Assembly (NCBI GenBank): GCA_900759475.1
Contig: CAAEVK010000012.1
Span: 75,938-139,937 of the forward strand
From: Clostridia bacterium
GTDB lineage: Bacteria; Bacillota; Clostridia; TANB77; CAG-508
Direction: 5' to 3'
DNA: 64,000 bases
The notes beneath the pieces were generated by a model. The model saw only the letters and a list, made by a program, of their open reading frames with translations, was not told where the DNA came from and made no database searches. Made by a program: the position numbers and the translations under genes. This document shows, piece by piece, positions 52,228 through 63,735 of this stretch (position 1 is its first letter; every line of letters starts with the position of its first letter).

Positions 52228-52845
52228 TTATTCTTGATGTTGTACTCCATTTACATCAATTTGATAATTTTCTTGATAAATTAAGTCTGACACTTTCACA
52301 ATATCAAAACCTTTTTCTTTAATACTCTTTATAATTCCTTTTAAACTAGATGCTGTATTTTTTGTTCCGTTATGCATTAAAATAATACTTCCATTTTGTA
52401 ATTTTGGTTCAATTCTACTAATCATTTCTTTTTCTGTTAATCCTGTATAGTCTAAACTATCTATTGACCATTGAATTGTAATATGATTTTCTGCTTTAGC
52501 AGCTCTTAAAACAGTATTACTATATTCACCATAAGGTCCCCTATAAAGTGTTGTCTTTTTTCCTGTTATTGCTTCTATTTTTTGACTACATTTTTTTATT
52601 TCCTCCCTATTCTTTTCTTCATTTAGATTGCTAACATGAGGATGTGTATTAGAATGATTTGCTATTTCATGTCCAGCTTCATAAATCTTTTTTACATATA
52701 CCCCATACTTATCCACCCAATCTCCCACCATAAAAAAAGTTATTTTTATTTTACTCTCCTCTAAAGTTTTTAAAATTTCATCAATATCGTCTGCATTCCA
52801 GTCGCAATTTCTTTTGTGATAGATTTTCGTTAAAATTAAAAGCAG
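52228..52845 (-). CDS. polysaccharide deacetylase (CE4/NodB, PdaA-like), 3' portion of a gene interrupted by the intervening element
   Basis: NodB motifs (HEIANHSNTHP, LYRGPYG, ILMHNG). The frame stays open upstream to a TAA at about 52846 with no start codon. The N-terminal continuation is at 63529-63735. Confidence 0.7.
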   Translation of the reverse strand: MLLILTKIYHKRNCDWNADDIDEILKTLEESKIKITFFMVGDWVDKYGVYVKKIYEAGHEIANHSNTHPHVSNLNEEKNREEIKKCSQKIEAITGKKTTLYRGPYGEYSNTVLRAAKAENHITIQWSIDSLDYTGLTEKEMISRIEPKLQNGSIILMHNGTKNTASSLKGIIKSIKEKGFDIVKVSDLIYQENYQIDVNGVQHQE

Positions 52846-52863
52846 ATTTTATCTACTCTAAAT

Positions 52864-54414
52864 TTACACTTTAAATTTGTAATTAATTTTAATATTTTCT
52901 TTATCAGTTATTTCAATACTATCTATTAAATTTAAAATTATATTTCTATCTATGTTTTCAAAACTTACAATTTCTTTTATGTATTTTATTAATTCTCTTT
53001 CTTTTGTATTTTCGTAGTCTTGTAATTTTAGATTTAAATTTTCCGTTTTTTGTATTAATTCTTCTTGCTCTTTTTTGTAACTTTCTGAATATGTAACAAA
53101 TTCATTTGTATCTATTATTCCATTTACTCTATCTTCATAAGCTGTTTTTAGTATTTTGTTAATTTCATTAATCCTTTTTTTATTGTCTGTAATTTTTTTT
53201 TCTATTTTCTTTTTCTCTATATTTATACTGCTTTTATCAATAGAGTCTATTAGTTTTTCCTTATCTATTTTCTCGGTCAAATTTTTTCTTAAATCTTCTA
53301 CTACAAATTTATTCAAAACACTTTCTCTTATTGCTCTTCTTGTACAATAATCTTTTCCATATCTATTATACATACTACAAATTGCAACCATATCATCTTT
53401 TAATCCACTTTGTTTCTGAAATGTATATTTATTATGACATATTGGACAATATAATAGCCCTGCCAATAGATGTTCTGTATTTTCTTTTCTATGAATATTA
53501 TGTGCTTTTCTTTTTAAAATATCTTGTGCTAATTCAAATGTCTTTTTATCAATTATTGCTTCATGAGCATTTTCTTTTATTAGATATTCTGTTTTTGGAA
53601 GTAGCCTATATTTTTTTACTTTATAACTTACCATCTCACCTTTATGTTGTATTAAATCTCCTGTATATACTTTATTTGTTAATATAGATTTTATTGTATT
53701 GTGTCCCCATAAATTAGCAATTGCCTTGCAATGATATCTTGAATTTCTTTGTTTATATACAGATGGGCAGTCTATTTTTCTTTCATTTAATCTATGTGCT
53801 ATATATGCTAAGCCCTTTCCATTTATATATTCATTAAATATATATTTAACTACCTCTGCTGCTTCCTCATCTACAATTAGTTTAGTAATATCATTTGGAT
53901 GCTTTTTATATCCATATGGTGCAAATGCTCCAATGAATTCTCCCTTTTCTGCTTTTGTTCTTTTTACAGTTCTTACTTTTTTAGAAATATCTTTTGCATA
54001 CATATCATTTACAACTGCTAAAAATGGTCCAATATCGTTATTATTTGTTTTTGAAAATGTATCTACTCCATCATTTACGGCAATATACCTAATATTTCTT
54101 GCAGGAAAATAGTTTTCTGTGTAATATCCAACTTGTATATAATCTCTTCCTAAACGAGATAAATCTTTTGTTATTACTAAATCTATTTTTCCGTCATTTA
54201 CATCGTTTATTAATCTTATAAAATCTGGTCTATTAAAATTTGTACCTGTATATCCATCATCTGTATATATATCTACTAAAAACCAGTTAGAATGTTTTGC
54301 AATATATTCGCTCAAGAAAATTTTTTGATTTTTTATACTTTCTGATTCAGTTTTTGAATCATCATCTCTTGATAATCTTAAGTACATTCCGTACTTTGTA
54401 AGTTTTACTTTCAA
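52864..54414 (-). CDS. large serine recombinase (resolvase/invertase N-domain, recombinase domain, zinc ribbon)
   Basis: 516 aa. YLRLSRDDD catalytic-Ser region, a recombinase domain, a CPICHNKY zinc ribbon, and a C-terminal coiled coil. Confidence 0.85.
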   Translation of the reverse strand: MKVKLTKYGMYLRLSRDDDSKTESESIKNQKIFLSEYIAKHSNWFLVDIYTDDGYTGTNFNRPDFIRLINDVNDGKIDLVITKDLSRLGRDYIQVGYYTENYFPARNIRYIAVNDGVDTFSKTNNNDIGPFLAVVNDMYAKDISKKVRTVKRTKAEKGEFIGAFAPYGYKKHPNDITKLIVDEEAAEVVKYIFNEYINGKGLAYIAHRLNERKIDCPSVYKQRNSRYHCKAIANLWGHNTIKSILTNKVYTGDLIQHKGEMVSYKVKKYRLLPKTEYLIKENAHEAIIDKKTFELAQDILKRKAHNIHRKENTEHLLAGLLYCPICHNKYTFQKQSGLKDDMVAICSMYNRYGKDYCTRRAIRESVLNKFVVEDLRKNLTEKIDKEKLIDSIDKSSINIEKKKIEKKITDNKKRINEINKILKTAYEDRVNGIIDTNEFVTYSESYKKEQEELIQKTENLNLKLQDYENTKERELIKYIKEIVSFENIDRNIILNLIDSIEITDKENIKINYKFKV

Positions 54415-55049
54415 TTATACTTGTTTCCATATTGCCAAATTTTCTCCTTCCTCATAGTACATCATTATTACTATGTCTATATAAGAAACAAGTTATTTAG
54501 GATTTTGTGTTTTGAATTCTAACTCTTCTTCCTCTTTATTGCAAGTCTTTTCTTGCAAATATATTGGAAGTAATATTTCCATTAGTTCTTGCAATGTTTT
54601 TCCTTCGTTTGAATAACTTCTTACTACATTCATGTCCACCTCTTTCTTTTTAAATGTATATGTCAAAACATATAATTTATTACTTCAAAAAACAGATATA
54701 AATCATCCTATATCTGTTACAACCAATCAAAAAAGAGTCTAGCACTTTTTGCTAAACTCCATATTTTATATTGGTTAATTTTTGTATCACACTTTTCTTA
54801 CATAAATCTCTAATACACTATTTTTAATACTGTATTAGTAGACTTTTTGATAACACTTTTATTGCATAACTACACTATACAATATTTGATAAACATTGTA
54901 CTTTGCAACTTTTTGCTAACAAATTTTTTATATAAGAAATCTGTAGAGAATTTTTTATTTTCTCTACTTTATGTACCCTATTATATATAGATTTTTATAT
55001 GTTGTCAATGTTTTCATTAGATTTTTAATAAAAAATCTGTAGTATTTCA

Positions 55050-55712
55050 TTAAATAATATCTAATAATTCTTTCATTGATCTTATTTTATAATCTGGCTC
55101 TATTAAAACTTCTTCTTTTTTCTTCCATTTGTTATTTATATTTTGCTCATACCATATAGTCTTTACACCTAATACTTTTACTCCTAATAAATCTTCTAGT
55201 AGCTCATCACTTACAAATGCAATTTTATTGTATTCTTCTTTTGGAATTTCTTCAAATGCTTTCATATATACTTTTAAATTTGGTTTTCTTTCTTTTACTT
55301 CTTCTGAAATAACTACTTTTTTAAAATATTTTCTTATATCTTCACGTTTTAAAATATATTCAACATTCCTAATAGAATTATTACTTATAATTCCTAGATA
55401 ATAACCTTTTTCGTATAATTTAGCAATAGTCTCTCTTGTCTCGCCATCTAAAATATGAGATTCTAATAATAGTATATCAATTTTTTCTAAATCTTCTTCT
55501 GTTATATTTAAAATTGATGATAAATCTTTATATATTTCTTTTTCTGTAATCTTTCCTAGAGAGTTTAAAATTTGATAGTTTTTCCATTTTCCAAATATAT
55601 CATCCCATTTTAAATTATATTTTTCTAATATTTTATTTATTTTATCATCAACATTTTCAAATTTACTGATTAATGTATATCCCCAATCAAAAAATATATA
55701 TTTATATTTCAT
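55050..55712 (-). CDS. HAD-superfamily hydrolase
   Basis: 220 aa. Motif I FFDWGYTL, motif II GIISNNS, Lys motif ERKPNLKVY, and the last motif FVSDE. Confidence 0.6.
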   Translation of the reverse strand: MKYKYIFFDWGYTLISKFENVDDKINKILEKYNLKWDDIFGKWKNYQILNSLGKITEKEIYKDLSSILNITEEDLEKIDILLLESHILDGETRETIAKLYEKGYYLGIISNNSIRNVEYILKREDIRKYFKKVVISEEVKERKPNLKVYMKAFEEIPKEEYNKIAFVSDELLEDLLGVKVLGVKTIWYEQNINNKWKKKEEVLIEPDYKIRSMKELLDII

Positions 55713-55713
55713 C

Positions 55714-56094
55714 TTATCTTTCTTCTCCTTTATCTTTTATATTATTTATTTCTTCAATAATCTCATGTTCGAAAAATCTTTCTTGAAATTCTACTAATGC
55801 CTCAATTTGTTGTTTAGTATATATCTTTTCTTCAGGAGCAATCACTAATTTATCGTCATCATCATCCAATCTATGTATTGCAGCTATACATTTTCCTTCA
55901 TATTCTTCTACTGGTTCAAATATTCCTACTATATATGCATCTAATTCTTCACCATCTCCACTAATTGTATTCGGAACATATCCATAATTAATTGGATATA
56001 TAAAATTCCATTTAGGATGTTTTGAGCCCATTGGTCTATCCATAACAACTTTGACTTTCTTACCTAAAAAATCTTTATAACTTACTTTTTTCAT
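55714..56094 (-). CDS. inorganic pyrophosphatase-like protein (truncated family I PPase fold)
   Basis: 126 aa. MDRPMG...YPINYGYVPNT...DGEELDAYIV resembles the PPase core. Confidence 0.45.
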   Translation of the reverse strand: MKKVSYKDFLGKKVKVVMDRPMGSKHPKWNFIYPINYGYVPNTISGDGEELDAYIVGIFEPVEEYEGKCIAAIHRLDDDDDKLVIAPEEKIYTKQQIEALVEFQERFFEHEIIEEINNIKDKGEER

Positions 56095-56108
56095 TTATTA
56101 TATCCTTT

Positions 56109-57056
56109 CTAATATAATTTATTGTATATCATATCCGATAATTTTTTAATATTACCTCTTGCAGTATATATTCCGGTCTTTTTAACTAATTTCTCTACAA
56201 AATTCATTCTCTTCATTGCTAGTTCTTGATTGTCAAAATTAGGGAATGGATAATTTGTGCTTAATACAATATTTCTATCAGCCCTTATATATTCTGATAT
56301 AGCCTTCATTGTAGCTAATGTCGCAACATCTTCCATTTGTTTTGTTAAATTTGTTTCTTCATCTTTAACTGGATATGTAGCAGTATATAGTATATTTGAA
56401 AGCTTCGCTGTCTTAGTTACTTTTATACCTAACTCTTCAAATTCTGGATTTATATATATTTTGTTTTCCCATGGTCTATTCATTTTCTCTTTGTCAATTT
56501 TACTTATCAAACTTGGAAAATATTCATGTATTACTCCAACTCTAATATGAGTTTGAAGAGTCCCACAGTAAACATATGGTATTCCATCTTCAAGACCTAT
56601 AACTGCTCTATCATTGCATACAAAGTTATAGCCTTTTTCCATACAAAGATACATTGCCAATGTTGTTTTACCCGAACCAGCTTCTCCTGAAATTAATGTT
56701 GCTTTACCATCTTTTTCAACAATTGCACAATGAATAAAATACTTATCTTCTTTGTTTAATTCTTTTGCAAACATTGATAAGGCTAAATATATCAAATCTG
56801 GTAAATACAATTCTCTTTCTGGTACACATATCAATGCTTGGTTCAATTCTGGATTTATTTGTACTAAATTAGGTCTTTTATCTAGGTAAATCAAATAATT
56901 CCCACTCAAATCAGCATTTTCATCAGGTATAATTTCTATTCCAGGTATAGTTTCCGGAACTTGTTCTTCATCTGTCAAAAAATAATTGTAAATCTTTTCA
57001 GAATTTGTTGCAAATATAATTTCTGCGGAATGGCATTTCATCCTTAATTTTTTCAT
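56109..57056 (-). CDS. HprK-related P-loop kinase-like protein
   Basis: 315 aa. Walker A LISGEAGSGKTTLA followed by NDR, like the HPr kinase C-domain. Confidence 0.5.
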   Translation of the reverse strand: MKKLRMKCHSAEIIFATNSEKIYNYFLTDEEQVPETIPGIEIIPDENADLSGNYLIYLDKRPNLVQINPELNQALICVPERELYLPDLIYLALSMFAKELNKEDKYFIHCAIVEKDGKATLISGEAGSGKTTLAMYLCMEKGYNFVCNDRAVIGLEDGIPYVYCGTLQTHIRVGVIHEYFPSLISKIDKEKMNRPWENKIYINPEFEELGIKVTKTAKLSNILYTATYPVKDEETNLTKQMEDVATLATMKAISEYIRADRNIVLSTNYPFPNFDNQELAMKRMNFVEKLVKKTGIYTARGNIKKLSDMIYNKLY

Positions 57057-57074
57057 TTAATACCTCCTTACTAA

Positions 57075-58319
57075 TTAGAAAACAATATCATTTTCTATCA
57101 ATTTTACTATTCTATTCTTCTCTTGAATTATATCACATTCGTCTATAATTTTAAACTTGTAATTTTCTATTATTATTTTCCCATCTTTCATTACTATCTC
57201 AGGCTTATTTCCTGATGTGTAGATTAGGTTTTCTATAATAGATTTTTTATAAGTAAAATTTAAATTATTTCTATTAAAGAATAATATATCTGCCTTATTT
57301 CCCTCAATAATACTTCCCGAATTTATTTTCATATATTTTGCTGGATTTATAGTAATCATATCTAGTAATGTATTGCTATCCAAATTAGTTAATAAAGCTG
57401 TTGTTCTCAAACTATCAAGTAATGATAACGAATCATTTGTTGCAGGTCCATCTGTTGCAACTATTACATTAATTTGATTATCCAATAATTTTTTTATATC
57501 ACATGGCTTATTTTTTAACTTTAAATTACTACTATGGCATGCTACAACTGATACTTTATTATTTTTTATTAACATTATATCATCATTACTTAAATAATTA
57601 CAATGCACTAGTAAAGTATTTTCATTTAATAAATCGTATTTTTTTAGTAATTCGATTGGTGTCATTTTATATTTTTTCTCAATGTATTTTACCTCTTCAG
57701 CAGTTTCGCAAATATGTAGACTTAATTTTATTCTCTTATTGTTTTTTAAAAAATTTGAAATCTCAATTAAAGTCCCTTTTTCTATCCATTTTACTGAATG
57801 TAAACCGATAAAGTATTCTACATTTTTCTTTTTCTCTAAAGAATTAAATTTCTGTTCAAAATTCAATTTATACTCCATCAACTTTTTAGAATTCATCATA
57901 GGGTACCCTAAAAAAGCATTAACTGGGAAACTTGCTACATTCGGCCATCCTCTAACTCCAAACACTGTCAATGTACCATTTTTGATTGATTCTAAAATAA
58001 CATTATTTATAGAACTACTCCTAATCTCATCTATAATACTCTTAAACTTTGTATGAAATTTCTCTCCTAACAAAATGTATTCTTCTGTTGATAGATTTTT
58101 TTTGTATCCTCTTAAAAAATATTCGCCAAAATGAATATGAGCATTTAAAAAAGCTGGTAAAATTATGTATTCTTTTGCTTCAATTACTTTCTTACTCGAA
58201 ATAGCCTTATTTCCCACATATACAATTTTATTATCTTTTATTCCTATATTTGCCTGCTTTATTTCTCTTTTAAAATTTTGAGTTACAATTAATCCGTCCC
58301 TTATTAGCAAATCTAACAT
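57075..58319 (-). CDS. amidohydrolase-superfamily enzyme (MtaD/SAH-deaminase/chlorohydrolase-like)
   Basis: 414 aa. N-terminal HxH metal motif (NAHIHFGEY) and TIM-barrel amidohydrolase pattern. Confidence 0.6.
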   Translation of the reverse strand: MLDLLIRDGLIVTQNFKREIKQANIGIKDNKIVYVGNKAISSKKVIEAKEYIILPAFLNAHIHFGEYFLRGYKKNLSTEEYILLGEKFHTKFKSIIDEIRSSSINNVILESIKNGTLTVFGVRGWPNVASFPVNAFLGYPMMNSKKLMEYKLNFEQKFNSLEKKKNVEYFIGLHSVKWIEKGTLIEISNFLKNNKRIKLSLHICETAEEVKYIEKKYKMTPIELLKKYDLLNENTLLVHCNYLSNDDIMLIKNNKVSVVACHSSNLKLKNKPCDIKKLLDNQINVIVATDGPATNDSLSLLDSLRTTALLTNLDSNTLLDMITINPAKYMKINSGSIIEGNKADILFFNRNNLNFTYKKSIIENLIYTSGNKPEIVMKDGKIIIENYKFKIIDECDIIQEKNRIVKLIENDIVF

Positions 58320-58328
58320 TATTAACTC

Positions 58329-59462
58329 CTACCTTTTTGGTTTTCCAATCCATGTACATAGATAATTTTCATGCACCAATTGTTTTTCTCCCTTTTTATA
58401 TTCAATGCTATCATTAAAATTAATTTCTTTAAAGCAAAATGGATCTCTAGCATATAAATCTTTTTCTCCAGTTTCACATTTTTTATATGTATAAGCCATA
58501 GCAAAACAGCCACCTCTGCAAATTTCTGCTTTATCACAATCTTTGCAACCTTCTATTTTTTCATAATTTTCTTTTCTAATTCTAAAACTCTTGAATTGCT
58601 CTGAATTAACTATATCAAGTATATCATCTTTTAAGAGATTTCCTACTCTATAGTCATGCATATATACACATGGAGATACAGGTATTTTTCCATCTGGTGT
58701 AATTGAATTGATCCTCATAGAATATATGCCACATGAACACCCATGCACTTTGTTATTATCCACTAATCCAGATAAAGTTGGTTCACTCAATTCTACTGTA
58801 TCACATATTTTAAATAAATACTTATAGTTTTCAAGTACTTGATTTTTAGTAGGTACAAGTTCATAATGTTTTTCTTGAATTGGTTTTAATAAATTAAATC
58901 GAATATTTGAATTATATTGCTTTGCTAATTCTAATAAAGCATCTATACGATCCTTGGTAAAATTCCAATTCATCGCACACATTATAATCCCTGATTCTAT
59001 TCCATATTCTTTGCATATTTCCAGAGCTTCTATTGCATATTTGTACACATCTCCTCCTCTATTTTCATTATGTTCTTTTTCATATGGTGAATCTAAACTA
59101 ATATCTACATCATTTAATAACTTTAGACATTCTGGGTAAACATTTTTCAATGCAATTAAACTTATTCCGGATGTTGTAATTCCTACTTTTATGTTCTTCT
59201 TTGTTAATTCTTTCAATATATATGGCAATAGACTATCCTGAACTTTTAAACCATTAGTAAAAATAGGTTCATTACCCCCTAAATTAATTGTCTCCACTCC
59301 TATTCTTTGAACCTGCTCAATTACTTTATCAACAATTTCTTTAGTAAGATTTTTTCCTTTTTCTCTAACACTCATTGAATAACAGTGTTTACATTTGCAA
59401 GGACAATCATTTCCTAATGTCCAACCTATGTTTTTAATTTGTCTACATTCTTTTTCTTCCAT
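58329..59462 (-). CDS. radical SAM enzyme with a C-terminal SPASM/twitch-type cysteine cluster
   Basis: 377 aa. CPCKCKHC fits Cx3Cx2C. GGNEP SAM motif. C-terminal CKDCDKAEICRGGC (Cx2Cx5Cx3C) plus additional Cys. Confidence 0.75.
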   Translation of the reverse strand: MEEKECRQIKNIGWTLGNDCPCKCKHCYSMSVREKGKNLTKEIVDKVIEQVQRIGVETINLGGNEPIFTNGLKVQDSLLPYILKELTKKNIKVGITTSGISLIALKNVYPECLKLLNDVDISLDSPYEKEHNENRGGDVYKYAIEALEICKEYGIESGIIMCAMNWNFTKDRIDALLELAKQYNSNIRFNLLKPIQEKHYELVPTKNQVLENYKYLFKICDTVELSEPTLSGLVDNNKVHGCSCGIYSMRINSITPDGKIPVSPCVYMHDYRVGNLLKDDILDIVNSEQFKSFRIRKENYEKIEGCKDCDKAEICRGGCFAMAYTYKKCETGEKDLYARDPFCFKEINFNDSIEYKKGEKQLVHENYLCTWIGKPKR

Positions 59463-59463
59463 T

Positions 59464-60177
59464 TTAATCCCCTTTCAAAATTTCTTTTTTTACTTTCCTT
59501 ATTTGTTCTTTAATCTTTTCATAGTATGAAAAATTTATATCTAAATTTTTCTTTAGAGCATCTATATATAATTCTTCATACAAACTTAAGTATATTTTAT
59601 ATTGCTTGTATGAATAATATTTATCTGTAATATTCCATAATTTAAATAAATTGTCTATTTCTTTTTCTGTTTTTATATTATTTTTTTGTCGGTCTACCAT
59701 TGATTTTCTATTTGATAATACATAAAGTAAAAATTCACAATCATTTTTTTGTTTTATTTGATTTATAAAATTTAAAATTATTTTTGTCTCATCTTCTATT
59801 ACTCCAACATCATTTAGATGATAGTTATATTCATTTGTTTTTCCAAAATGATTCTCATATATCTTTTTATCGACAATAGTTAATATATTCTTTTTATAAT
59901 TTATAGTAAAAATCTGTCCATATATAATATTGGTATTCTCAATTTGCCCACTTTCATTAATAGCATTAATAAATTTTAAATAATCAAATGTACTTTCTGT
60001 GTACTCCTCTATTTTTTCATTTTTCATAATTTTCTTCATTTCGTCATTTTTCTTCACATTTAATTCTATGTACTCTGTTAACTTTTTGCTATTTATAAGT
60101 TTTTTAATGAACTTTTTATCATCTATTATCTCTATTCCATCATATTTAAAAATGCCAATTTCATTATCGCTCTTCAT
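59464..60177 (-). CDS. hypothetical protein
   Basis: 237 aa, in the operon, no motif recognised. Confidence 0.35.
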   Translation of the reverse strand: MKSDNEIGIFKYDGIEIIDDKKFIKKLINSKKLTEYIELNVKKNDEMKKIMKNEKIEEYTESTFDYLKFINAINESGQIENTNIIYGQIFTINYKKNILTIVDKKIYENHFGKTNEYNYHLNDVGVIEDETKIILNFINQIKQKNDCEFLLYVLSNRKSMVDRQKNNIKTEKEIDNLFKLWNITDKYYSYKQYKIYLSLYEELYIDALKKNLDINFSYYEKIKEQIRKVKKEILKGD

Positions 60178-61069
60178 AATTTAATCCTCCTTGTGTAATA
60201 ATCTTTGCTTTATCCAACCAAGGAGTTATAATTTCTTCAGGTATATTTAAATTTGACCTACCTATACCTATCTCGGAATCAGGAGTACCATGTGAATCAC
60301 TTCCTCCTGAAATATATAAATTATTCTTTTGTGCAAATTCTAATGCAAATCGATGTTGTTCATTTGAATAATATGGATAATATCCTTCTATGCCATCTAA
60401 CATACTTTCACTTATTAATGTTTCTAGTACATCCATTGAATTTTCATTATACTTAAATATATGTGGCATAAAAACTTTCCCCCCACATTGTTTTATCAAC
60501 TGTACAACTTGTTTATATGATGGAATAAGTCCTGAAAAATCAACAAAAAAATCGCTATTAGGATTTGATGTATATGTTAATAGAAAGGTTCTTGCATTAT
60601 CCCACGCTTCTGCTGAGATAAACCTCTTATTTTCTAAATGTCTTTTTATTTCGTCAAATACTGCTCTTTTTCCTCTTTCTTTTTCCGCATCATATATTAT
60701 GTTATGAACATTTATAACTAAACCTTTTTCAATGCACTTTTCTATAATTAAATTAGTCTCATATATATTATAATCTTTTTTCGGAAGATATAATTTTGAT
60801 ATTTTGTCTTGCACTAAATCTGTATCAATATTATAGCCAATTAATTCTATTGGTACATTATTTACTATTGTAGAAAATTCACAACCTGGTATTATTTTTC
60901 CACTATAAAATCTTTCCTCTGATAATTCTTTTAATTCTGCATATGCTTCACATGTATTATTATCTGTTATTGAAATTATAGAAACATTTCTTTTCTCTGC
61001 TATCTGTAATATTTTTATTAAATTATTTTTTCCGCCAGAATAGTTTGAATGAATATGTAGATCTATCAT
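60164..61069 (-). CDS. PHP-domain metal-dependent phosphoesterase
   Basis: 301 aa. MIDLHIHSNYSGG and GGSDSHG PHP motifs. Confidence 0.65.
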   Translation of the reverse strand: MIDLHIHSNYSGGKNNLIKILQIAEKRNVSIISITDNNTCEAYAELKELSEERFYSGKIIPGCEFSTIVNNVPIELIGYNIDTDLVQDKISKLYLPKKDYNIYETNLIIEKCIEKGLVINVHNIIYDAEKERGKRAVFDEIKRHLENKRFISAEAWDNARTFLLTYTSNPNSDFFVDFSGLIPSYKQVVQLIKQCGGKVFMPHIFKYNENSMDVLETLISESMLDGIEGYYPYYSNEQHRFALEFAQKNNLYISGGSDSHGTPDSEIGIGRSNLNIPEEIITPWLDKAKIITQGGLNYEER

Positions 61070-61162
61070 AACAATCTCCTTTTGCTATTTACATAAATAT
61101 CTTACCATATTTTTCCACAAAATTCAACACTTATCCTTAATAATTTACATTTTTTGTATATC

Positions 61163-61735
61163 TTATATTGATTTTATTAACAAGTCAAAAATCAGTCTTT
61201 TTCCATCATCGTCCATTCGAGCATAAGAATCTGAAATCTTTTTATTCACAGTTTGATTAGCTTCATCTTGATTAGTAAACTTTAATAAATACTCGAAAAA
61301 ATATTTTTTATGAAGAATATAAGAAATTATATCTGAATTTATTATTAACTTGCTCATCTGATCAAAATCATCATTTGCATTTTTTCTATGATTCATTATA
61401 GCATGTTTTATTAATTGTATTTTTGTCTCTTTATAGTTATTTTCTCTTAAAAAATCTTCTGCATACTCTGCTCCTATAATCTCATGATTATCTATTTCTC
61501 CTTTAAGCATAAATTTTCCGACATCATGAAATAATCCTGTTAATATAGCGTCTATTTTATTGATTCTCTTTATATATGACATTTCAAAGCAAATCTTTGC
61601 ACAAGGTATAAAATGTTCTTCATAAAAAGGAATTGAACTATTTTCCTTTGCTAATTTACTTATTATTCTAGTTGACTTAACTAAAATTGGATTTGTCTCT
61701 AGTAATTTTTCAAATTCTATATTTCTACTATACAT
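61163..61735 (-). CDS. HD-domain phosphohydrolase
   Basis: 190 aa. H...HD motif (LFHDVGK). Confidence 0.6.
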   Translation of the reverse strand: MYSRNIEFEKLLETNPILVKSTRIISKLAKENSSIPFYEEHFIPCAKICFEMSYIKRINKIDAILTGLFHDVGKFMLKGEIDNHEIIGAEYAEDFLRENNYKETKIQLIKHAIMNHRKNANDDFDQMSKLIINSDIISYILHKKYFFEYLLKFTNQDEANQTVNKKISDSYARMDDDGKRLIFDLLIKSI

Positions 61736-61842
61736 CTTTATCTCCTTCTGATTATGCTTATTTATAATTTTATTTTTTAATTATAATATATATTTCTTAT
61801 AATTACAATTATAAATTACCTTATTAATTATTTCATTATCCT

Positions 61843-62313
61843 TTATTCATTCCTAAACTCTTCTCTATAAACATCTCCTATAATATAAAAATCATATAAA
61901 TCCATTTTAGTCATTCCTTCAGGGTCTTTACTTACATAATAATTCGCTTTTTTTCTTGCATTTTTTAACATTTTATTAAATCTCTCATAATGTTCATCAC
62001 CTAATAAATTTTTCATAACTTCACTATTTAAGTATGTACCAATAGCCATTGTTCTTAAAAATTTTATACTTATTTTTCTTTGTGTCTTTAAAAACTTGTC
62101 CATTTTTTCTTCAATTGGTTTTAAAATTTCTTTAATTAATTCTTCCATTTTATCTTGATATAAATCTAAATTTAATTCCTTATCTATACCACTTCTAATA
62201 ATATCTGCTTCATATCTTCCTTGACTTTTTGCAATATTTTTTATCATATCTTTTTTATATTTTGGTACTCTAATTACCATAGTTACTAATTTTTCTTCTT
62301 CTTTTTCCTTCAA
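61843..62313 (-). CDS. hypothetical protein (possible ribbon-helix-helix N-terminus)
   Basis: 156 aa. TTG start with a GGAGG SD. Confidence 0.35.
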   Translation of the reverse strand: MKEKEEEKLVTMVIRVPKYKKDMIKNIAKSQGRYEADIIRSGIDKELNLDLYQDKMEELIKEILKPIEEKMDKFLKTQRKISIKFLRTMAIGTYLNSEVMKNLLGDEHYERFNKMLKNARKKANYYVSKDPEGMTKMDLYDFYIIGDVYREEFRNE

Positions 62314-62525
62314 CTTTCTTCCTCCTTTTCTTGTTGCTTTTTCTTTTCAAAATTGTTTTTAACAATTTTGCAGGATCAGGGAGATATCTCATCTCCCGCT
62401 TACTGCCTAAAAGCGTGGCTTTTAGCAGGGTGCTTTATACATTTTCGTGATATCCTTTGTATATCTCACTTAATCCTAAAAAAAGCAAGTATAAATTCAA
62501 AAAAATCTATACTTGTTCCTTAATT

Positions 62526-62849
62526 TTATTTTAATTCTTCTTGCAATTTGATTCCATCTTTCAATCCTGATAGATAATATTTTTTATAAAAATAATAACT
62601 TTCATAATCTACTGTTTCAATATAATCTTCTAATACTTTTATAATATCATCTTTTAATTCATTAAGATTGTATGGAATTTTTTCTATTTTTTCGTTTAGA
62701 AAATTATGTTTTTTACTTCTATTGGCTTTATCTTGATTCATAAATCTTTTATCTTCTTCATTTATAAAAGCCAATTCTTCTTCTCTTGCCTCGAATATAG
62801 TTTCTAACATATTAATATTTTTATTTACCATTTTTATCTCACCTCCCAT
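62526..62849 (-). CDS. hypothetical protein
   Basis: 107-aa ORF. Confidence 0.3.
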   Translation of the reverse strand: MGGEIKMVNKNINMLETIFEAREEELAFINEEDKRFMNQDKANRSKKHNFLNEKIEKIPYNLNELKDDIIKVLEDYIETVDYESYYFYKKYYLSGLKDGIKLQEELK

Positions 62850-62900
62850 TGCTGTGTGATGTTAACTCTGTTTAAATAATTATTCAAGTCTTTTTTAGAA

Positions 62901-63311
62901 TTATTTAAAATTATTTGCATATAAACTCATCCAATCAAAATTGCTATAATCTCTATCACTTTTATATTTATATTTTTTATTTATATTATTTGATGGTAAA
63001 AATTCCACAACTTTATTTGCACTTTTTTCATTACCTATATGTAAATTTTCTATATCTTTAGAATATACATCTACAACATATATTTTATATGCTTTACCTT
63101 TTCCTTGATTTTCTTGTTTTATTAATTTTGCCTCTTCTAATTCTTTAAATATTTTTATTACTGTTTTACTACTTGCTTTTAAGTTTTCTCCCATTTCTTT
63201 TCTTGTCATAAAAAGACATATATTTCCATATTCGTCAACTTTGTTGTTCATCCTTGATAAATTTAATCTATCTAGTATAAAAATATATGCTAATTGAGAC
63301 AAAGGGCACAA
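62901..63311 (-). CDS. RepA_N-family winged-helix DNA-binding protein (replication-initiator-A N-terminal domain type, common on Firmicute mobile elements)
   Basis: LAYIFILDRLNLS...DEYGNICLFMTRKEM...KTVIKIFKELEEAKLI pattern. The N-terminus may extend upstream. Confidence 0.5.
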   Translation of the reverse strand: MCPLSQLAYIFILDRLNLSRMNNKVDEYGNICLFMTRKEMGENLKASSKTVIKIFKELEEAKLIKQENQGKGKAYKIYVVDVYSKDIENLHIGNEKSANKVVEFLPSNNINKKYKYKSDRDYSNFDWMSLYANNFK

Positions 63312-63528
63312 AATCGATTTATATGCTCTGCATATAAAATTTTTCTTGGTACTTGACAGAACTTAAAATTAAGTTTTTGATTTATATTTATATACTTCAA
63401 TATTCACCTCATTTCATTTTGAAATTATGCACTCACAATTTCAATAAAAAGGACTACTAACCTAAATTAGTAATCCATTCCAAAATCCTGAAATAACTTG
63501 TTTTTAATTTCTATCATAAAAGTAATTG

Positions 63529-63735
63529 TTACCAAGCACAATTCATTGTTAAGGCTACTTTCTTTTCTGTAGTATCTACAGAATAAATTGGGACTTCTCT
63601 TTCTGTATAAGTTGTTTGAATACTTTCTTCCAAATTGCTTGTTGCACCAAGAACAAATAAAACACTCACTGTTAAAAATGCAATTATATAGGATATTATT
63701 TTATCTTTATTTAACACCAAAAACATACTATTCAC
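63529..63735 (-). CDS. polysaccharide deacetylase (PdaA-like), 5' portion: signal/TM segment up to ...KKVALTMNCAW
   Basis: An N-terminal TM helix and ...VALTxxxxW, the start of the NodB domain. The stop is created at the element junction. Confidence 0.6.
   Translation of the reverse strand: MNSMFLVLNKDKIISYIIAFLTVSVLFVLGATSNLEESIQTTYTEREVPIYSVDTTEKKVALTMNCAW

What the first reader, a model, noticed from the sequence alone, without database searches (positions are those of the whole stretch)
55050..61735. Cargo operon of the element: radical-SAM/SPASM, HprK-like P-loop, amidohydrolase, PHP, HD, HAD and pyrophosphatase-like genes. This may be an undescribed nucleotide- or peptide-modification or defence module
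Eight co-directional genes sit tightly packed, several with overlapping stop and start codons.

The rSAM protein has both a Cx3Cx2C cluster and a C-terminal Cx2Cx5Cx3C SPASM/twitch auxiliary cluster. HprK-like kinases are known partners of RiPP maturases.

The remaining enzymes are all of the nucleotide, phosphate or ester-processing type. They are a PPase-like protein, a HAD phosphatase, a PHP phosphoesterase, an HD phosphohydrolase and an MtaD-like deaminase/amidohydrolase.

I do not recognise this combination as a known pathway. It lacks MoaA/QueE/viperin signatures and the Mqn-type genes. It is reminiscent of nucleotide-depleting or nucleotide-modifying antiphage cargo, or of a small-molecule/RiPP pathway.

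If the element excises only in the sporulating mother cell, the cargo is carried in every vegetative cell. That is a layout known for defence genes on some intervening elements.
Basis: partly seen in the sequence, partly recalled or inferred. Interest (0 to 1): 0.7.

Follow-up and report, generated by a model that had tools for sequence, protein, structure and literature searches.

The report
Mobile radical-SAM cassette, probably nucleotide-modifying
A tightly packed set of eight enzyme genes carried by a small mobile element in a gut Clostridium is a real, conserved and uncharacterised pathway that most likely makes a modified nucleotide-like compound, but what the compound is and what it is for remain unknown.

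Summary
Window 55050-61735 (minus strand) carries eight intact co-directional genes, and all the domain calls were reproduced.

No protein reaches the trusted cut-off of any specific family, and no known pathway or defence system matches.

Comparison with about 90 related loci shows three things:
- Genes PHP to HAD (55057-61134) form a discrete 6.1-kb module. It sits on at least four kinds of mobile element and in one chromosomal site.
- An almost identical element (96% nt) in the same pdaB-like gene carries a different cargo. That cargo shares only the rSAM and the truncated pyrophosphatase-like gene.
- This rSAM family is about 50% identical from Clostridia to Actinobacteria and Patescibacteria. 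It usually sits beside an OxsB-like B12 radical-SAM enzyme, nucleotide kinases, NUDIX/phosphatases and an MtaD-like deaminase.

There is no precursor peptide, RRE domain, protease or transporter, so a RiPP is unlikely. My best reading (about 0.5) is synthesis of a nucleotide-derived small molecule with built-in phosphate handling and self-protection. Its role, antiviral or antibacterial, is undecided. It is a new variant of a known kind.

The parts
61163..61735 (-). HD-domain phosphohydrolase-like protein (190 aa). It is the first gene of the co-directional block and is shared by elements with different cargo.
   Evidence: Pfam HD, 33.8 bits. The HD motif 'GLFHDVGK' is conserved. The 96%-identical backbone shared with L022 ends exactly at its stop codon. 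It also accompanies the cassette on an unrelated serine-recombinase element, L092/L093, at 76% aa. It is absent from L012, L041, L089 and L090. There is no PDB sequence match, including OxsA.
60164..61069 (-). PHP-family metal phosphoesterase (301 aa), of the TrpH/RNase AM / 3',5'-bisphosphate nucleotidase type.
   Evidence: Pfam PHP, 28.6 bits. NCBIfam RNase RNM 69.5 bits over the full length, and nucleoside bisphosphate phosphatase 51.6 bits, both far below cut-off. PDB matches: 9etk, 3e0f, 7ug9 (5'-3' exoribonuclease) and 2yb1. The N-terminal DLHIH motif is conserved.
59464..60177 (-). Orphan protein 'unk237' (237 aa). It overlaps the PHP gene by 14 bp and forms a conserved pair with PHP.
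58329..59462 (-). Radical SAM enzyme with a full SPASM domain (377 aa). It is the conserved core of the cassette (family 'c0').
   Evidence: Pfam Radical_SAM + SPASM. The best NCBIfam hit is the mycofactocin maturase, 95 bits against a cut-off of 265. 699 homologues were found. Invariant Cys: 20, 24, 27, 242, 244, 306, 309, 315, 319, 343 and 369. About 50% identical orthologues occur across phyla. The AF2 model has pLDDT 89.5. Nearest folds are BlsE, anSME, SuiB, MoaA and viperin, with TM <= 0.65. dN/dS is 0.05.
57075..58319 (-). Amidohydrolase-superfamily deaminase (414 aa), of the MtaD/DadD/aminofutalosine-deaminase group.
   Evidence: Amidohydro_1, 129.5 bits. NCBIfam PRK06038 192 bits and 5'-deoxyadenosine deaminase 158 bits, both below cut-off. 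PDB neighbours: 4dyk/4gbd, aminofutalosine deaminase 7lkj, and MTA/SAH deaminases 4f0r and 1p1m. The HxH and HxxE motifs are conserved.
56109..57056 (-). P-loop NTPase or kinase (315 aa), only loosely HprK-like.
   Evidence: The Walker A motif GEAGSGKT is conserved in 13 variants. HprK_rel_A 33.5 bits, HprK_rel_B 33.2, ScmC 25.8 and FomB 16.6, all far below cut-off. No significant PDB match. hhalign links only its P-loop to the thymidylate- and guanylate-kinase-like proteins of the alternative cargo, at about 80% probability. dN/dS is 0.06-0.08.
55714..56094 (-). Truncated family-I pyrophosphatase-like protein (126 aa). It is the second conserved core gene (family 'c2').
   Evidence: Pfam Pyrophosphatase, 36.2 bits. 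Only residues 31-92 align, to positions about 53-118 of 175-aa PPases; the NYGY, DGxxLD and DDDxDK metal-site motifs are kept. It is found with the rSAM in 42 of 86 loci, including Nocardia, Nitrosomonas, Blastochloris and Patescibacteria.
55050..55712 (-). HAD-superfamily hydrolase (220 aa), YjjG/pyrimidine-5'-nucleotidase-like but with an atypical motif I.
   Evidence: HAD_2, 57.9 bits. TIGR02253 83.7 bits and pyrimidine 5'-nucleotidase PRK09449 76.4 bits, both below cut-off. Motif I reads DWGYT, with Asp+2 replaced by Gly, in all six sequence variants.
55057..61134 (.). The exchangeable 7-gene module (PHP to HAD), treated as one unit.
   Evidence: It is 82.7% nt identical over 6101 bp to L012 (Clostridium sp. 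CAG:343), and the similarity stops at the module ends. In L012 it lies between relA/spoT and cwlD and is bracketed by a 38-bp direct repeat. The same seven genes lie on a Mob_Pre element (L089), beside a tyrosine integrase (L090) and on a second serine-recombinase element (L092).
52798..63531 (.). Context: a 10.7-kb integrated element that interrupts a PdaB-like polysaccharide deacetylase gene. It carries a serine recombinase (52864-54414), a RepA_N-like gene (62901-63311) and two small unknown genes.
   Evidence: The split gene halves end and resume at the imperfect repeat AATTGTGCTTGG / AATTGCGACTGG. The joined protein matches PdaB TIGR02764 over 1-191/191, 190 bits. The recombinase has Resolvase + Recombinase + Zn_ribbon_recom domains. 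The same element and flanks occur in gut metagenome contigs.

Best explanation
The block is a mobile biosynthetic cassette built round two conserved genes: a radical SAM/SPASM enzyme and a truncated pyrophosphatase-like protein. I propose that it converts a common phosphorylated metabolite, most likely a (deoxy)nucleotide, into a modified analogue.

Proposed steps (all inferred; none shown):
1. The P-loop kinase supplies or re-phosphorylates the substrate.
2. The rSAM carries out the radical step on it, and the SPASM clusters handle the electrons.
3. The MtaD-like deaminase either deaminates an adenine-type product or removes the inhibitory by-product 5'-deoxyadenosine.
4. The pyrophosphatase-like protein, PHP(+unk237), HAD-like and HD proteins trim phosphates. 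This either releases the nucleoside or keeps the toxic triphosphate form from accumulating in the producer.

Shown:
- The genes are intact, co-transcribable and under purifying selection.
- The 7-gene module moves as a unit.
- The rSAM + PPase-like pair is the only part kept when the cargo is swapped.
- The rSAM family elsewhere sits with an OxsB-like B12 rSAM and nucleotide kinases and hydrolases.

The biological role is undecided: a conflict function, either an antiviral nucleotide analogue or an antibacterial antimetabolite.
For: - Domain content is confirmed and the catalytic motifs are intact.
- The block has an operon-like layout with an SD before each gene and no internal terminator.
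- dN/dS is 0.05-0.36 for all seven genes.
- Module behaviour: window 55057-61134 matches L012 at 82.7% nt, with breakpoints at the module ends. The element backbone is 96% identical to L022, but the cargo is replaced, keeping only the rSAM (80.5% nt) and the PPase-like gene.
- The alternative cargo is histidine phosphatase, rSAM, B12 rSAM, methyltransferase, thymidylate-kinase-like, guanylate-kinase-like and PPase-like genes.
- The B12 rSAM partner's best solved relative is OxsB, which acts on dAMP/dADP/dATP (E 7e-17; PMC13331322).
- The thymidylate-kinase-like partner hits the viperin-associated kinase VakA and PDC-M51B, and the B12 rSAM hits PDC-M51A.
- More distant cassettes add NUDIX, APH, PNP, ThyA-like, deoxyribosyltransferase, ThiD and TenA genes.
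- The PHP and HAD best hits are nucleotide phosphatases. The deaminase's nearest solved relatives act on 5'-substituted adenosines.
- Precedent for rSAM + kinase + NTPase making a nucleoside antibiotic with self-resistance: thmABC (PMC12691670).
- No RiPP hallmarks were found.
Against: - No substrate or product has been demonstrated.
- The rSAM's best sequence and fold matches are mostly peptide- or protein-modifying SPASM enzymes (MftC, anSME, SuiB), with TM only 0.5-0.65.
- The window cassette lacks the B12 rSAM and the classical nucleotide kinases that make the relatives look nucleotide-directed.
- The same rSAM family also occurs in non-nucleotide contexts: NifH/NifDK-like, PPDK-like and PAPS-reductase-like neighbours.
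- Several accessory genes (deaminase, PNP, APH) could be SAM by-product salvage enzymes and so say nothing about the substrate.
- The HAD protein lacks the Asp+2 general acid of HAD phosphatases.
- The PPase-like protein lacks the N- and C-terminal parts of true PPases.
Confidence: 0.5

Rival explanations
1. Anti-phage defence. The cassette makes a chain-terminating or otherwise toxic nucleotide analogue, or depletes a nucleotide, on infection. This would resemble prokaryotic viperins with their kinases, and the phosphatases would protect the host.
For: - The cassette is carried by at least four kinds of mobile element, with cassette swapping at a fixed cargo site.
- Phyletic distribution is patchy while sequence identity stays high.
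- Relatives' B12 rSAM and kinase weakly resemble the PADLOC candidate PDC-M51 and the viperin-associated kinase VakA.
- A GajB-like UvrD helicase adjoins the B-type and C-type cassettes.
- No cassette protein has a membrane segment, so there is no exporter.
- A defence system with rSAM + PHP exists: Ophion.
Against: - No window protein hits any PADLOC family beyond the generic rSAM core, HD or P-loop.
- The PDC-M51 components are absent from the window.
- 100 flanking proteins from 26 loci gave few defence hits.
- There is no recognisable sensor.
- Constitutive-looking biosynthetic operons fused to bacimethrin-like genes in Actinobacteria, and an MFS exporter in L087, point to secreted metabolites.
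- No phage challenge has been done.
Confidence: 0.25
2. Secreted antimetabolite. The product is a nucleoside antibiotic or antivitamin used against competing bacteria. The phosphatases and PPase-like protein would act as self-resistance, and dephosphorylation would come before release.
For: - Direct precedents exist: thmABC (rSAM + kinase + NTPase resistance), and oxetanocin/albucidin (B12 rSAM + HD, or + a second rSAM).
- The actinobacterial 10-gene operon joins the rSAM core to ThyA-like, deoxyribosyltransferase, ThiD and TenA genes, as in bacimethrin clusters.
- L087 has an MFS exporter inside the operon.
Against: - The window cassette and the alternative cargo have no transporter and no regulator.
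- The cassette is present in Patescibacteria, which have minimal genomes.
- Homology of this rSAM to AlsA was not testable, and AlsA was described as biotin-synthase-like.
Confidence: 0.22
3. RiPP maturation. The rSAM/SPASM enzyme cross-links or modifies a ribosomal peptide, and the HprK-like kinase phosphorylates it.
For: - The best NCBIfam hits are peptide maturases: MftC 95 bits, and GeoRSP, ScmE/F and CbpB.
- There are weak ScmC and HprK-related hits for the P-loop protein.
- Fold neighbours include anSME, SuiB, CteB and PqqE.
Against: - All these scores are 3-10 times below the family cut-offs.
- The rSAM motif starts at residue 20, leaving no room for an N-terminal RRE, and there is no PqqD gene.
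- No conserved small ORF lies in or next to the module in four diverged copies.
- There is no protease or exporter.
- The conserved partners are nucleotide and phosphate enzymes.
Confidence: 0.08
4. Metabolic housekeeping rather than conflict. Options are salvage of SAM by-products (5'-deoxyadenosine, MTA, SAH), an adenosylation-type pathway like MqnE / aminofutalosine deaminase / MqnB, or tailoring of a cofactor (corrinoid or tetrapyrrole).
For: - The deaminase groups with MTA/SAH, 5'-dA and aminofutalosine deaminases.
- Relatives carry PNP_UDP_1 (Pfs/MqnB-type) and APH (MtnK-type) genes.
- The B12 rSAM's best NCBIfam hit is BchE, 151 bits.
- The rSAM has NirJ/AhbC/AhbD hits.
- Some relatives sit with NifH/NifDK-like genes.
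- The family occurs in Patescibacteria, which depend on salvage.
Against: - The cassette is accessory: it is carried by mobile elements and is absent from most relatives of the host.
- No Mqn, Mtn or tetrapyrrole genes lie in the window cassette.
- No riboswitch was found.
- Swapping between alternative tailoring sets is unusual for housekeeping pathways.
Confidence: 0.12

Closest known systems
Oxetanocin-A and albucidin pathways (OxsB + OxsA; AlsB + AlsA)
   Same: Both are small clusters in which radical SAM chemistry acts on deoxyadenosine phosphates, with an HD phosphohydrolase or a second rSAM as partner. In relatives of this cassette the rSAM is paired with a B12-binding rSAM whose best solved relative is OxsB. 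An HD gene heads the window block.
   Different: The window cassette has no B12 rSAM. Its HD protein has no detectable sequence match to OxsA or any PDB chain. AlsA was described as biotin-synthase-like rather than SPASM, and its sequence could not be compared. The PPase-like, PHP, deaminase and HAD genes have no counterpart in those pathways.
thmABC 4'-thiothymidine cluster of Photorhabdus
   Same: The logic is the same: rSAM + nucleoside kinase + nucleotide (tri)phosphatase, with the phosphatase giving self-resistance (PMC12691670).
   Different: That cluster has three genes, no SPASM-type description, and is found in Enterobacterales. This cassette has seven or eight genes, including a deaminase.
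Prokaryotic viperins with associated kinases (pVip)
   Same: Both involve a radical SAM enzyme acting on NTPs, supplied by neighbouring nucleotide kinases, and often on mobile elements. The rSAM core gives weak pVip hits (E 1e-11), and the relatives' kinase hits VakA.
   Different: Viperins lack a SPASM domain. The similarity covers only the generic rSAM core (residues 12-180), and the fold TM is only 0.44. This is not a viperin.
Ophion defence system (rSAM OpnA + PHP OpnB + PRTase OpnC)
   Same: It combines an rSAM with a PHP phosphoesterase in a validated anti-phage system (bioRxiv 10.1101/2025.09.30.679545).
   Different: There is no phosphoribosyltransferase here. OpnA is viperin-related, whereas this rSAM is SPASM-type. 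Ophion is from Gammaproteobacteria.
PADLOC candidate PDC-M51 (B12 rSAM + kinase)
   Same: The B12 rSAM and thymidylate-kinase-like genes of related cassettes hit PDC-M51A and PDC-M51B. Two flanking proteins hit PDC-M51B at 1.6e-25.
   Different: The hits are modest (38-65 bits). PDC-M51 is untested. Neither component is present in the window cassette.
HprK-related kinase / SPASM cassettes (SynChlorMet, GeoRSP, lasso-peptide kinases)
   Same: These also pair a SPASM rSAM with a P-loop protein that has an HprK-type Walker A region.
   Different: Scores are far below the family cut-offs, there is no peptide precursor, and the remaining genes are different.
Sporulation-gene intervening elements (skin-type)
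   Same: The carrier is a serine-recombinase element that splits a PdaB-like sporulation gene, and the joined ORF is full length.
   Different: This concerns the carrier, not the cargo. Excision timing was not tested. The same cargo also rides on elements that split a peroxiredoxin gene, on a Mob_Pre element, and beside a tyrosine integrase.

Membership tests
Radical SAM / SPASM superfamily | A CX3CX2C cluster motif, a C-terminal CX2CX5CX3C motif with further Cys for two auxiliary clusters, and Pfam PF04055 + PF13186 above the gathering score. | tested here: met
   C20/C24/C27 and C306/C309/C315/C319, plus C242, C244, C343 and C369, are invariant. PF04055 scores 61.9 against a cut-off of 29.5, and PF13186 scores 43 against 21.5.
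Mycofactocin maturase MftC (best NCBIfam hit) | A score at or above the TIGR03962 cut-off (265), with MftA and MftB neighbours. | tested here: not met
   The score is 95.3 bits. There is no small precursor ORF and no PqqD-like gene in the block.
Prokaryotic viperin (pVip) | Full-length match to the viperin models, a viperin C-terminal NTP-binding extension, and no SPASM domain. | tested here: not met
   The PADLOC pVip hit covers only residues 12-180 (42 bits). A SPASM domain is present. The fold TM against viperin is 0.44.
HPr kinase/phosphorylase and HprK-related kinases A/B | A score above the Pfam Hpr_kinase_C cut-off (33.3) or the TIGR04352/TIGR04355 cut-off (200). | tested here: not met
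   The scores are 18, 33.5 and 33.2 bits, all limited to residues about 101-174 around the Walker A motif. PDB HprK matches have E = 0.21.
SynChlorMet cassette | ScmC, ScmE and ScmF at or above their cut-offs (125, 400, 400). | tested here: not met
   The scores are 25.8, 62.8 and 58.5 bits.
Family I inorganic pyrophosphatase | A full-length domain of about 170 aa, including the N-terminal (E20/K29/E31/R43) and C-terminal (Y141/K142) phosphate ligands (E. coli numbering, from my own knowledge), and an equivalog score at or above the cut-off. | tested here: not met
   The Pfam domain hit passes (36.2 against 23.5), but only profile positions 31-111 of 153 match. NCBIfam scores 36 against cut-offs of 246 and 200. 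The alignment to PDB PPases covers only chain residues about 53-118. The protein is 126 aa long.
MTA/SAH or 5'-deoxyadenosine deaminase (MtaD/DadD) | Amidohydrolase HxH, H, H and D metal ligands, an HxxE motif, and an equivalog score at or above the cut-off. | tested here: inconclusive
   HIH and HICE are conserved. The scores of 158-192 bits fall below cut-offs of 522-609. The nearest PDB chains are MTA/SAH and aminofutalosine deaminases at 66-83 bits. It belongs to the same subgroup, but the substrate is unknown.
HAD phosphatases | Motif I is DxDx(T/V), with Asp+2 as the general acid/base. | tested here: not met
   Motif I is DWGYT in all six variants. The HAD fold itself is met: HAD_2 scores 57.9 bits.
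Oxetanocin/albucidin-type cluster | An OxsB/AlsB-like B12-dependent rSAM, plus OxsA (HD) or AlsA. | tested here: not met
   No B12-binding rSAM lies anywhere in the 64-kb window. The HD protein shows no match to OxsA. An OxsB-like partner is present only in relatives. The AlsA comparison could not be run.
Ophion | rSAM + PHP + phosphoribosyltransferase. | tested here: not met
   None of the ten element proteins has a PRTase domain.
PADLOC known or candidate defence systems (including ppl and PDC-M51) | Component HMM hits for the system's genes. | tested here: not met
   Only generic hits were found: pVip core, Cas3-HD and P-loop. The PHP, unk237, deaminase, PPase-like and HAD proteins gave no hit.
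Futalosine (Mqn) pathway | MqnA, MqnE, MqnC and MqnD together with aminofutalosine deaminase. | tested here: not met
   Only the deaminase resembles a pathway member (84 bits against a cut-off of 320). No Mqn family appears among the rSAM's listed hits, and no MqnA/D-like gene lies in the block.
Intervening element in a sporulation gene (carrier) | A split host ORF that is restored on precise excision, a large serine recombinase at one end, and excision in the mother cell. | tested here: inconclusive
   The split and the recombinase are met: the joined ORF matches PdaB over 1-191/191. Excision and its timing cannot be tested with these tools.

The most novel reading that the evidence does not exclude
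The rSAM/SPASM + mini-pyrophosphatase pair defines a widespread, unstudied family of enzymes that make nucleotide analogues. The family spans Clostridia, Actinobacteria, Patescibacteria and even an archaeal MAG. Mobile elements shuffle alternative tailoring sets around this pair (PHP/unk237/deaminase/kinase/HAD, or B12 rSAM/methyltransferase/three kinases). Each combination would give a different antiviral or antibacterial nucleotide. In this host the cassette sits on an element that is removed only when a sporulation gene must be restored.
Probability: 0.3. Interest if true: 0.8.

Novelty: new variant of a known kind. Interest (0 to 1): 0.6.

Why it matters
If the product is a new nucleotide analogue, the cassette would add radical-SAM chemistry to the short list of natural routes to such compounds (viperin products, oxetanocin/albucidin, 4'-thionucleosides). 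Several of those are antiviral or antibiotic leads.

The family is abundant in human-gut Clostridia: the exact PPase-like protein is on 246 contigs and the exact rSAM is listed in 33 blocks of the collection. It is conserved at about 50% identity across very distant phyla, yet no member has been studied.

The clean swap of two cargo versions on an otherwise 96%-identical element gives a natural experiment. It separates what is core (rSAM + PPase-like) from what is tailoring.

The orphan protein unk237 and the truncated pyrophosphatase are new protein types with no assigned function.

Tried and rejected
- Megablast of the whole element against the phage and plasmid collections: no match.
- Rfam scan of 52-64 kb for a riboswitch that might name the ligand: nothing significant.
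- Search for a precursor peptide: ORFs of 20 aa or more around the block, and tblastx/blastn of the flanks of four diverged copies. Nothing conserved was found.
- Test of whether PHP+unk237 replace the missing B12 rSAM through hidden homology: blastp and hhalign against the B12 rSAM and the unknown proteins c6 and c8 gave nothing.
- Fold of the rSAM against the PDB: only generic SPASM/twitch neighbours, so it does not decide the substrate.
- Scan for phage carriage: only 1 of 2.9 million viral contigs encodes a relative. That contig looks like a transposon-flanked metabolite cluster, so a phage DNA-hypermodification role was dropped.
- Literature searches for the gene combination and for 'PDC-M51': no description found. 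The albucidin enzymology papers (PMC9561071, PMC12379298) are not held, so AlsA could not be compared.
- PADLOC scan of 100 flanking proteins, used as a rough defence-island test: few hits and no control set, so it is not decisive.
- The ExExK-like N-terminus of c6 in the alternative cargo suggested a CYTH triphosphatase, but Pfam and NCBIfam give no hit. I keep it only as a lead.

Full report
**1. The observation**

Window 55050-61735 holds eight ORFs on the minus strand:
- HD: 61163-61735
- PHP: 60164-61069
- an unnamed 237-aa ORF ('unk237'): 59464-60177
- rSAM/SPASM: 58329-59462
- amidohydrolase: 57075-58319
- P-loop protein: 56109-57056
- pyrophosphatase-like: 55714-56094
- HAD: 55050-55712

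Every gene starts with ATG behind a Shine-Dalgarno-like sequence. The gaps are 93, -14, 1, 9, 18, 14 and 1 bp. The packing is therefore real, although only one pair truly overlaps. No terminator-like hairpin lies inside the block.

The two cysteine motifs of the rSAM are exactly as described and are invariant in homologues. Two qualifications apply:
- The 'HprK-like' label rests on about 55 residues round the Walker A loop, with scores far below the family cut-offs and no significant PDB match.
- One of the eight genes has no recognisable family.

**2. No known pathway or system**

All NCBIfam equivalog hits are 3-10 times below their cut-offs:
- rSAM: best is MftC, 95 bits against 265.
- Deaminase: 192 bits against 609.
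- PHP: RNase RNM, 69.5 bits against 375.
- PPase: 36 bits against 246.

PADLOC returns only generic hits to the rSAM core, the HD domain and the P-loop. There is no riboswitch. There is no nucleotide match in the phage or plasmid collections. Literature searches found no description of this gene set.

**3. The carrier**

The block is cargo of a 10.7-kb element (about 52798-63531) that interrupts a polysaccharide deacetylase gene:
- The N-terminal part of the gene ends at ...AATTGTGCTTGG|TAA.
- The C-terminal part resumes after AATTGCGACTGG|.
- The joined protein matches the sporulation protein PdaB model end to end.
- A large serine recombinase (52864-54414) lies at one end and a RepA_N-like gene at the other.

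Excision timing cannot be tested here.

**4. What belongs together**

Exact copies of the element occur in gut metagenomes. I fetched 80 genome loci that encode relatives of the rSAM, searched them with the window proteins and clustered their ORFs.

Pairwise blastn gives the clearest picture.

*Cargo swap on the same element.* An element in the same pdaB site (L022) shares the backbone at 96% nt:
- on one side, up to the stop codon of the HD gene (window 63579-61165);
- on the other, from 24 nt after the HAD stop onwards (55026 downwards).

Its cargo is different: histidine phosphatase, rSAM, B12-binding rSAM, methyltransferase, an unknown protein, a thymidylate-kinase-like protein, a second P-loop protein, a guanylate-kinase-like protein and a PPase-like protein. 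Only the rSAM (80.5% nt, 84% aa) and the PPase-like gene are common to the two cargos.

*The 7-gene module as a unit.* Window 55057-61134, which is exactly PHP to HAD, is 82.7% identical to a stretch of Clostridium sp. CAG:343 (L012). There it lies between relA/spoT and cwlD and is bracketed by a 38-bp direct repeat.

The same seven genes also occur in three further contexts:
- on a Mob_Pre element (L089);
- beside a tyrosine integrase (L090);
- together with the HD gene, on a different serine-recombinase element (32% identical recombinase) that splits a peroxiredoxin gene (L092/L093).

So the unit is a 7-gene module, and HD is a frequent companion shared by both cargo types. All seven genes are under purifying selection. 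The rSAM and the P-loop protein are the most constrained (dN/dS 0.05-0.08) and unk237 the least (0.32-0.36).

**5. The wider family**

The rSAM belongs to a tight orthologous group. Members are about 50% identical in:
- Streptomyces, Nocardia and Microbispora;
- Paenibacillus, Seinonella and Thermoactinomyces;
- Nitrospirota, Acidobacteriota and many Patescibacteria;
- one Micrarchaeota MAG.

Its most frequent neighbours are:
- a B12-binding rSAM (49 of 86 loci; 18 of the 38 distant ones);
- the PPase-like protein (42 loci, including 11 distant ones).

The B12 rSAM's best solved relative is OxsB, the oxetanocin ring-contraction enzyme that acts on dAMP/dADP/dATP (PMC13331322). Its best NCBIfam hit is BchE.

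Further partners are mostly nucleotide-, phosphate- or SAM-by-product-handling enzymes:
- a thymidylate-kinase-like protein, which hits the viperin-associated kinase VakA and PDC-M51B;
- a guanylate-kinase-like protein, NUDIX, a histidine phosphatase and the MtaD-like deaminase;
- in Mollicutes and Muribaculaceae MAGs, the five-gene set P-loop(HprK-like) / B12 rSAM / rSAM / PPase-like / deaminase.

In Nocardia and Streptomyces the core heads a 10-gene operon. It continues with APH, PNP, thymidylate-synthase-like, deoxyribosyltransferase, ThiD, an FAD oxidase and TenA. This gene set resembles that of the pyrimidine antivitamin bacimethrin (PMC12345177).

The picture is not uniform. Some family members sit instead with a second SPASM paralogue, with PPDK-like and nucleotidyltransferase genes, with a PAPS-reductase-like gene, or with NifH/NifDK-like genes.

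Only one of 2.9 million viral contigs carries a relative. That contig has an IS1595 transposase and an MFS exporter inside the operon.

**6. The individual proteins**

*PPase-like protein.* It keeps the central metal-binding motifs of family I pyrophosphatases. It aligns only to chain residues about 53-118 of 175 and is 126 aa long.

*Deaminase.* It has the HxH and HxxE motifs. Its nearest solved relatives are MTA/SAH and aminofutalosine deaminases.

*PHP protein.* It is nearest to TrpH/RNase AM and to 3',5'-bisphosphate nucleotidases.

*HAD protein.* It resembles YjjG-type pyrimidine nucleotidases, but motif I is DWGYT, with no Asp+2, in all variants.

*unk237.* It is an orphan:
- 43 relatives in the 5.8-billion-protein index;
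- 19 representative clusters in 1.84 billion proteins;
- a confident AF2 model (pLDDT 80) with no fold match.

unk237 forms a conserved pair with PHP, and the pair recurs with another rSAM, a kinase and a methyltransferase in L088.

*rSAM.* Its model (pLDDT 89.5) is nearest to BlsE, anSME, SuiB, MoaA and, for the core only, viperin. TM scores are at most 0.65, which does not decide the substrate.

No cassette protein has a predicted membrane segment.

**7. Interpretation**

*Best reading.* The best-supported reading (about 0.5) is a mobile pathway that turns a phosphorylated common metabolite, most likely a nucleotide, into a modified analogue. The rSAM + PPase-like pair is the invariant engine. 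The remaining genes would be tailoring, by-product removal and self-protection.

This matches the logic of thmABC (rSAM + kinase + NTPase resistance), of oxetanocin/albucidin and of viperin-kinase pairs. It is a member of none of them: each defining feature that could be tested failed (see the membership table).

*RiPP reading (about 0.08).* This is unlikely. There is no RRE, no precursor, no protease and no exporter.

*Role.* The biological role is open:
- For defence: mobile carriage, cargo swapping at a fixed site, weak PDC-M51/VakA links in relatives, GajB-like helicases next to some relatives, and no exporter.
- Against defence: no hit to any defence family for the window proteins, and few defence neighbours.
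- For a secreted antimetabolite: the actinobacterial fusion with bacimethrin-like genes and the exporter in L087.

*Housekeeping reading (about 0.12).* A salvage, cofactor or adenosylation-type reading cannot be excluded. The deaminase, PNP and APH partners are also the enzyme types that clear SAM by-products.

**8. Verdict**

I rate it a new variant of a known kind (radical-SAM nucleotide-analogue cassettes), with interest 0.6. The decisive work is experimental: expression with metabolomics, in vitro rSAM substrate screening, and phage and growth-inhibition assays.

Noticed in passing
window 54726-54973 (-), promoter 55008-54980, terminator 54760-54734: A perfect sigma-70 consensus promoter (TTGACA-17-TATAAT) is followed by a 248-nt stretch without an ORF and then an intrinsic terminator. 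The stretch folds at -61.9 kcal/mol against -33.5 +/- 4.0 for shuffles (z = -7.2). It is 95-98% conserved next to the recombinase in elements with a different cargo. It is probably a backbone non-coding RNA or a recombinase-site region. There is no Rfam match.
   Followed up: partly
window 54493-54666 (-): A small ORF (46 aa from ATG, 57 aa from TTG) lies directly upstream of the serine recombinase. A 71-aa ORF holds the same position in the unrelated L092 element. It is a candidate recombination directionality factor or regulator.
   Followed up: no
window 52798-52800 / 63532-63534 and flanks: The element ends lie in an imperfect 12-nt repeat (AATTGTGCTTGG / AATTGCGACTGG) inside a PdaB-like gene. 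The joined ORF matches PdaB TIGR02764 over its whole length (190 bits; cut-off 237).
   Followed up: partly
L022 (whole locus), L025, L043: The same element backbone in the same pdaB site carries a different 9-gene cargo: His phosphatase, rSAM, B12 rSAM, MTase, unknown, TMK-like, P-loop, GK-like, PPase-like. L022 also has a second serine recombinase and a third PPase-like copy a few kb away, suggesting tandem elements.
   Followed up: partly
L012:7693-7730 and L012:15028-15065: A 38-bp direct repeat (97% identical) brackets the 7-gene module where it sits in the chromosome of Clostridium sp. CAG:343, between relA/spoT and cwlD. It may be the footprint of module insertion.
   Followed up: no
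window 55050-55712 (HAD), residues 9-13: HAD motif I reads DWGYT in all variants. The Asp+2 general acid of HAD phosphatases is replaced by Gly, as in dehalogenase- or phosphonatase-type members, so the enzyme may not be a simple phosphatase.
   Followed up: partly
L058, L059, L052 (Oscillospiraceae/Ruminococcaceae MAGs), about 3900-11100 in L059: Close relatives of the rSAM end an operon of rSAM, methyltransferase, rSAM, NifH-like and two NifD/K-like genes. This is an uncharacterised nitrogenase-like system.
   Followed up: no
L067:8048-18279 (Nocardia arthritidis), also L050, L053, L056, L070: A ten-gene co-directional operon links the B12 rSAM / rSAM / PPase-like core to APH, PNP, thymidylate-synthase-like, deoxyribosyltransferase, ThiD, FAD oxidase and TenA genes. 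This is a bacimethrin-like pyrimidine antivitamin gene set with two extra radical enzymes.
   Followed up: partly
L005, L006, L008 (metagenome copies of the element): Some otherwise near-identical copies have split genes: PHP in L005, unk237 in L006 and the P-loop gene in L008. These are either assembly errors or decay of the cassette in some strains.
   Followed up: no
L024:13822-14481 and L024:15134-15742 (alternative cargo): Two family-less proteins were seen. One has an N-terminal YERELKY (ExExK-like, reminiscent of CYTH triphosphatases). The other has a Walker A motif GMDFSGKT, which would make it a third kinase. Pfam and NCBIfam give no hit for either.
   Followed up: partly
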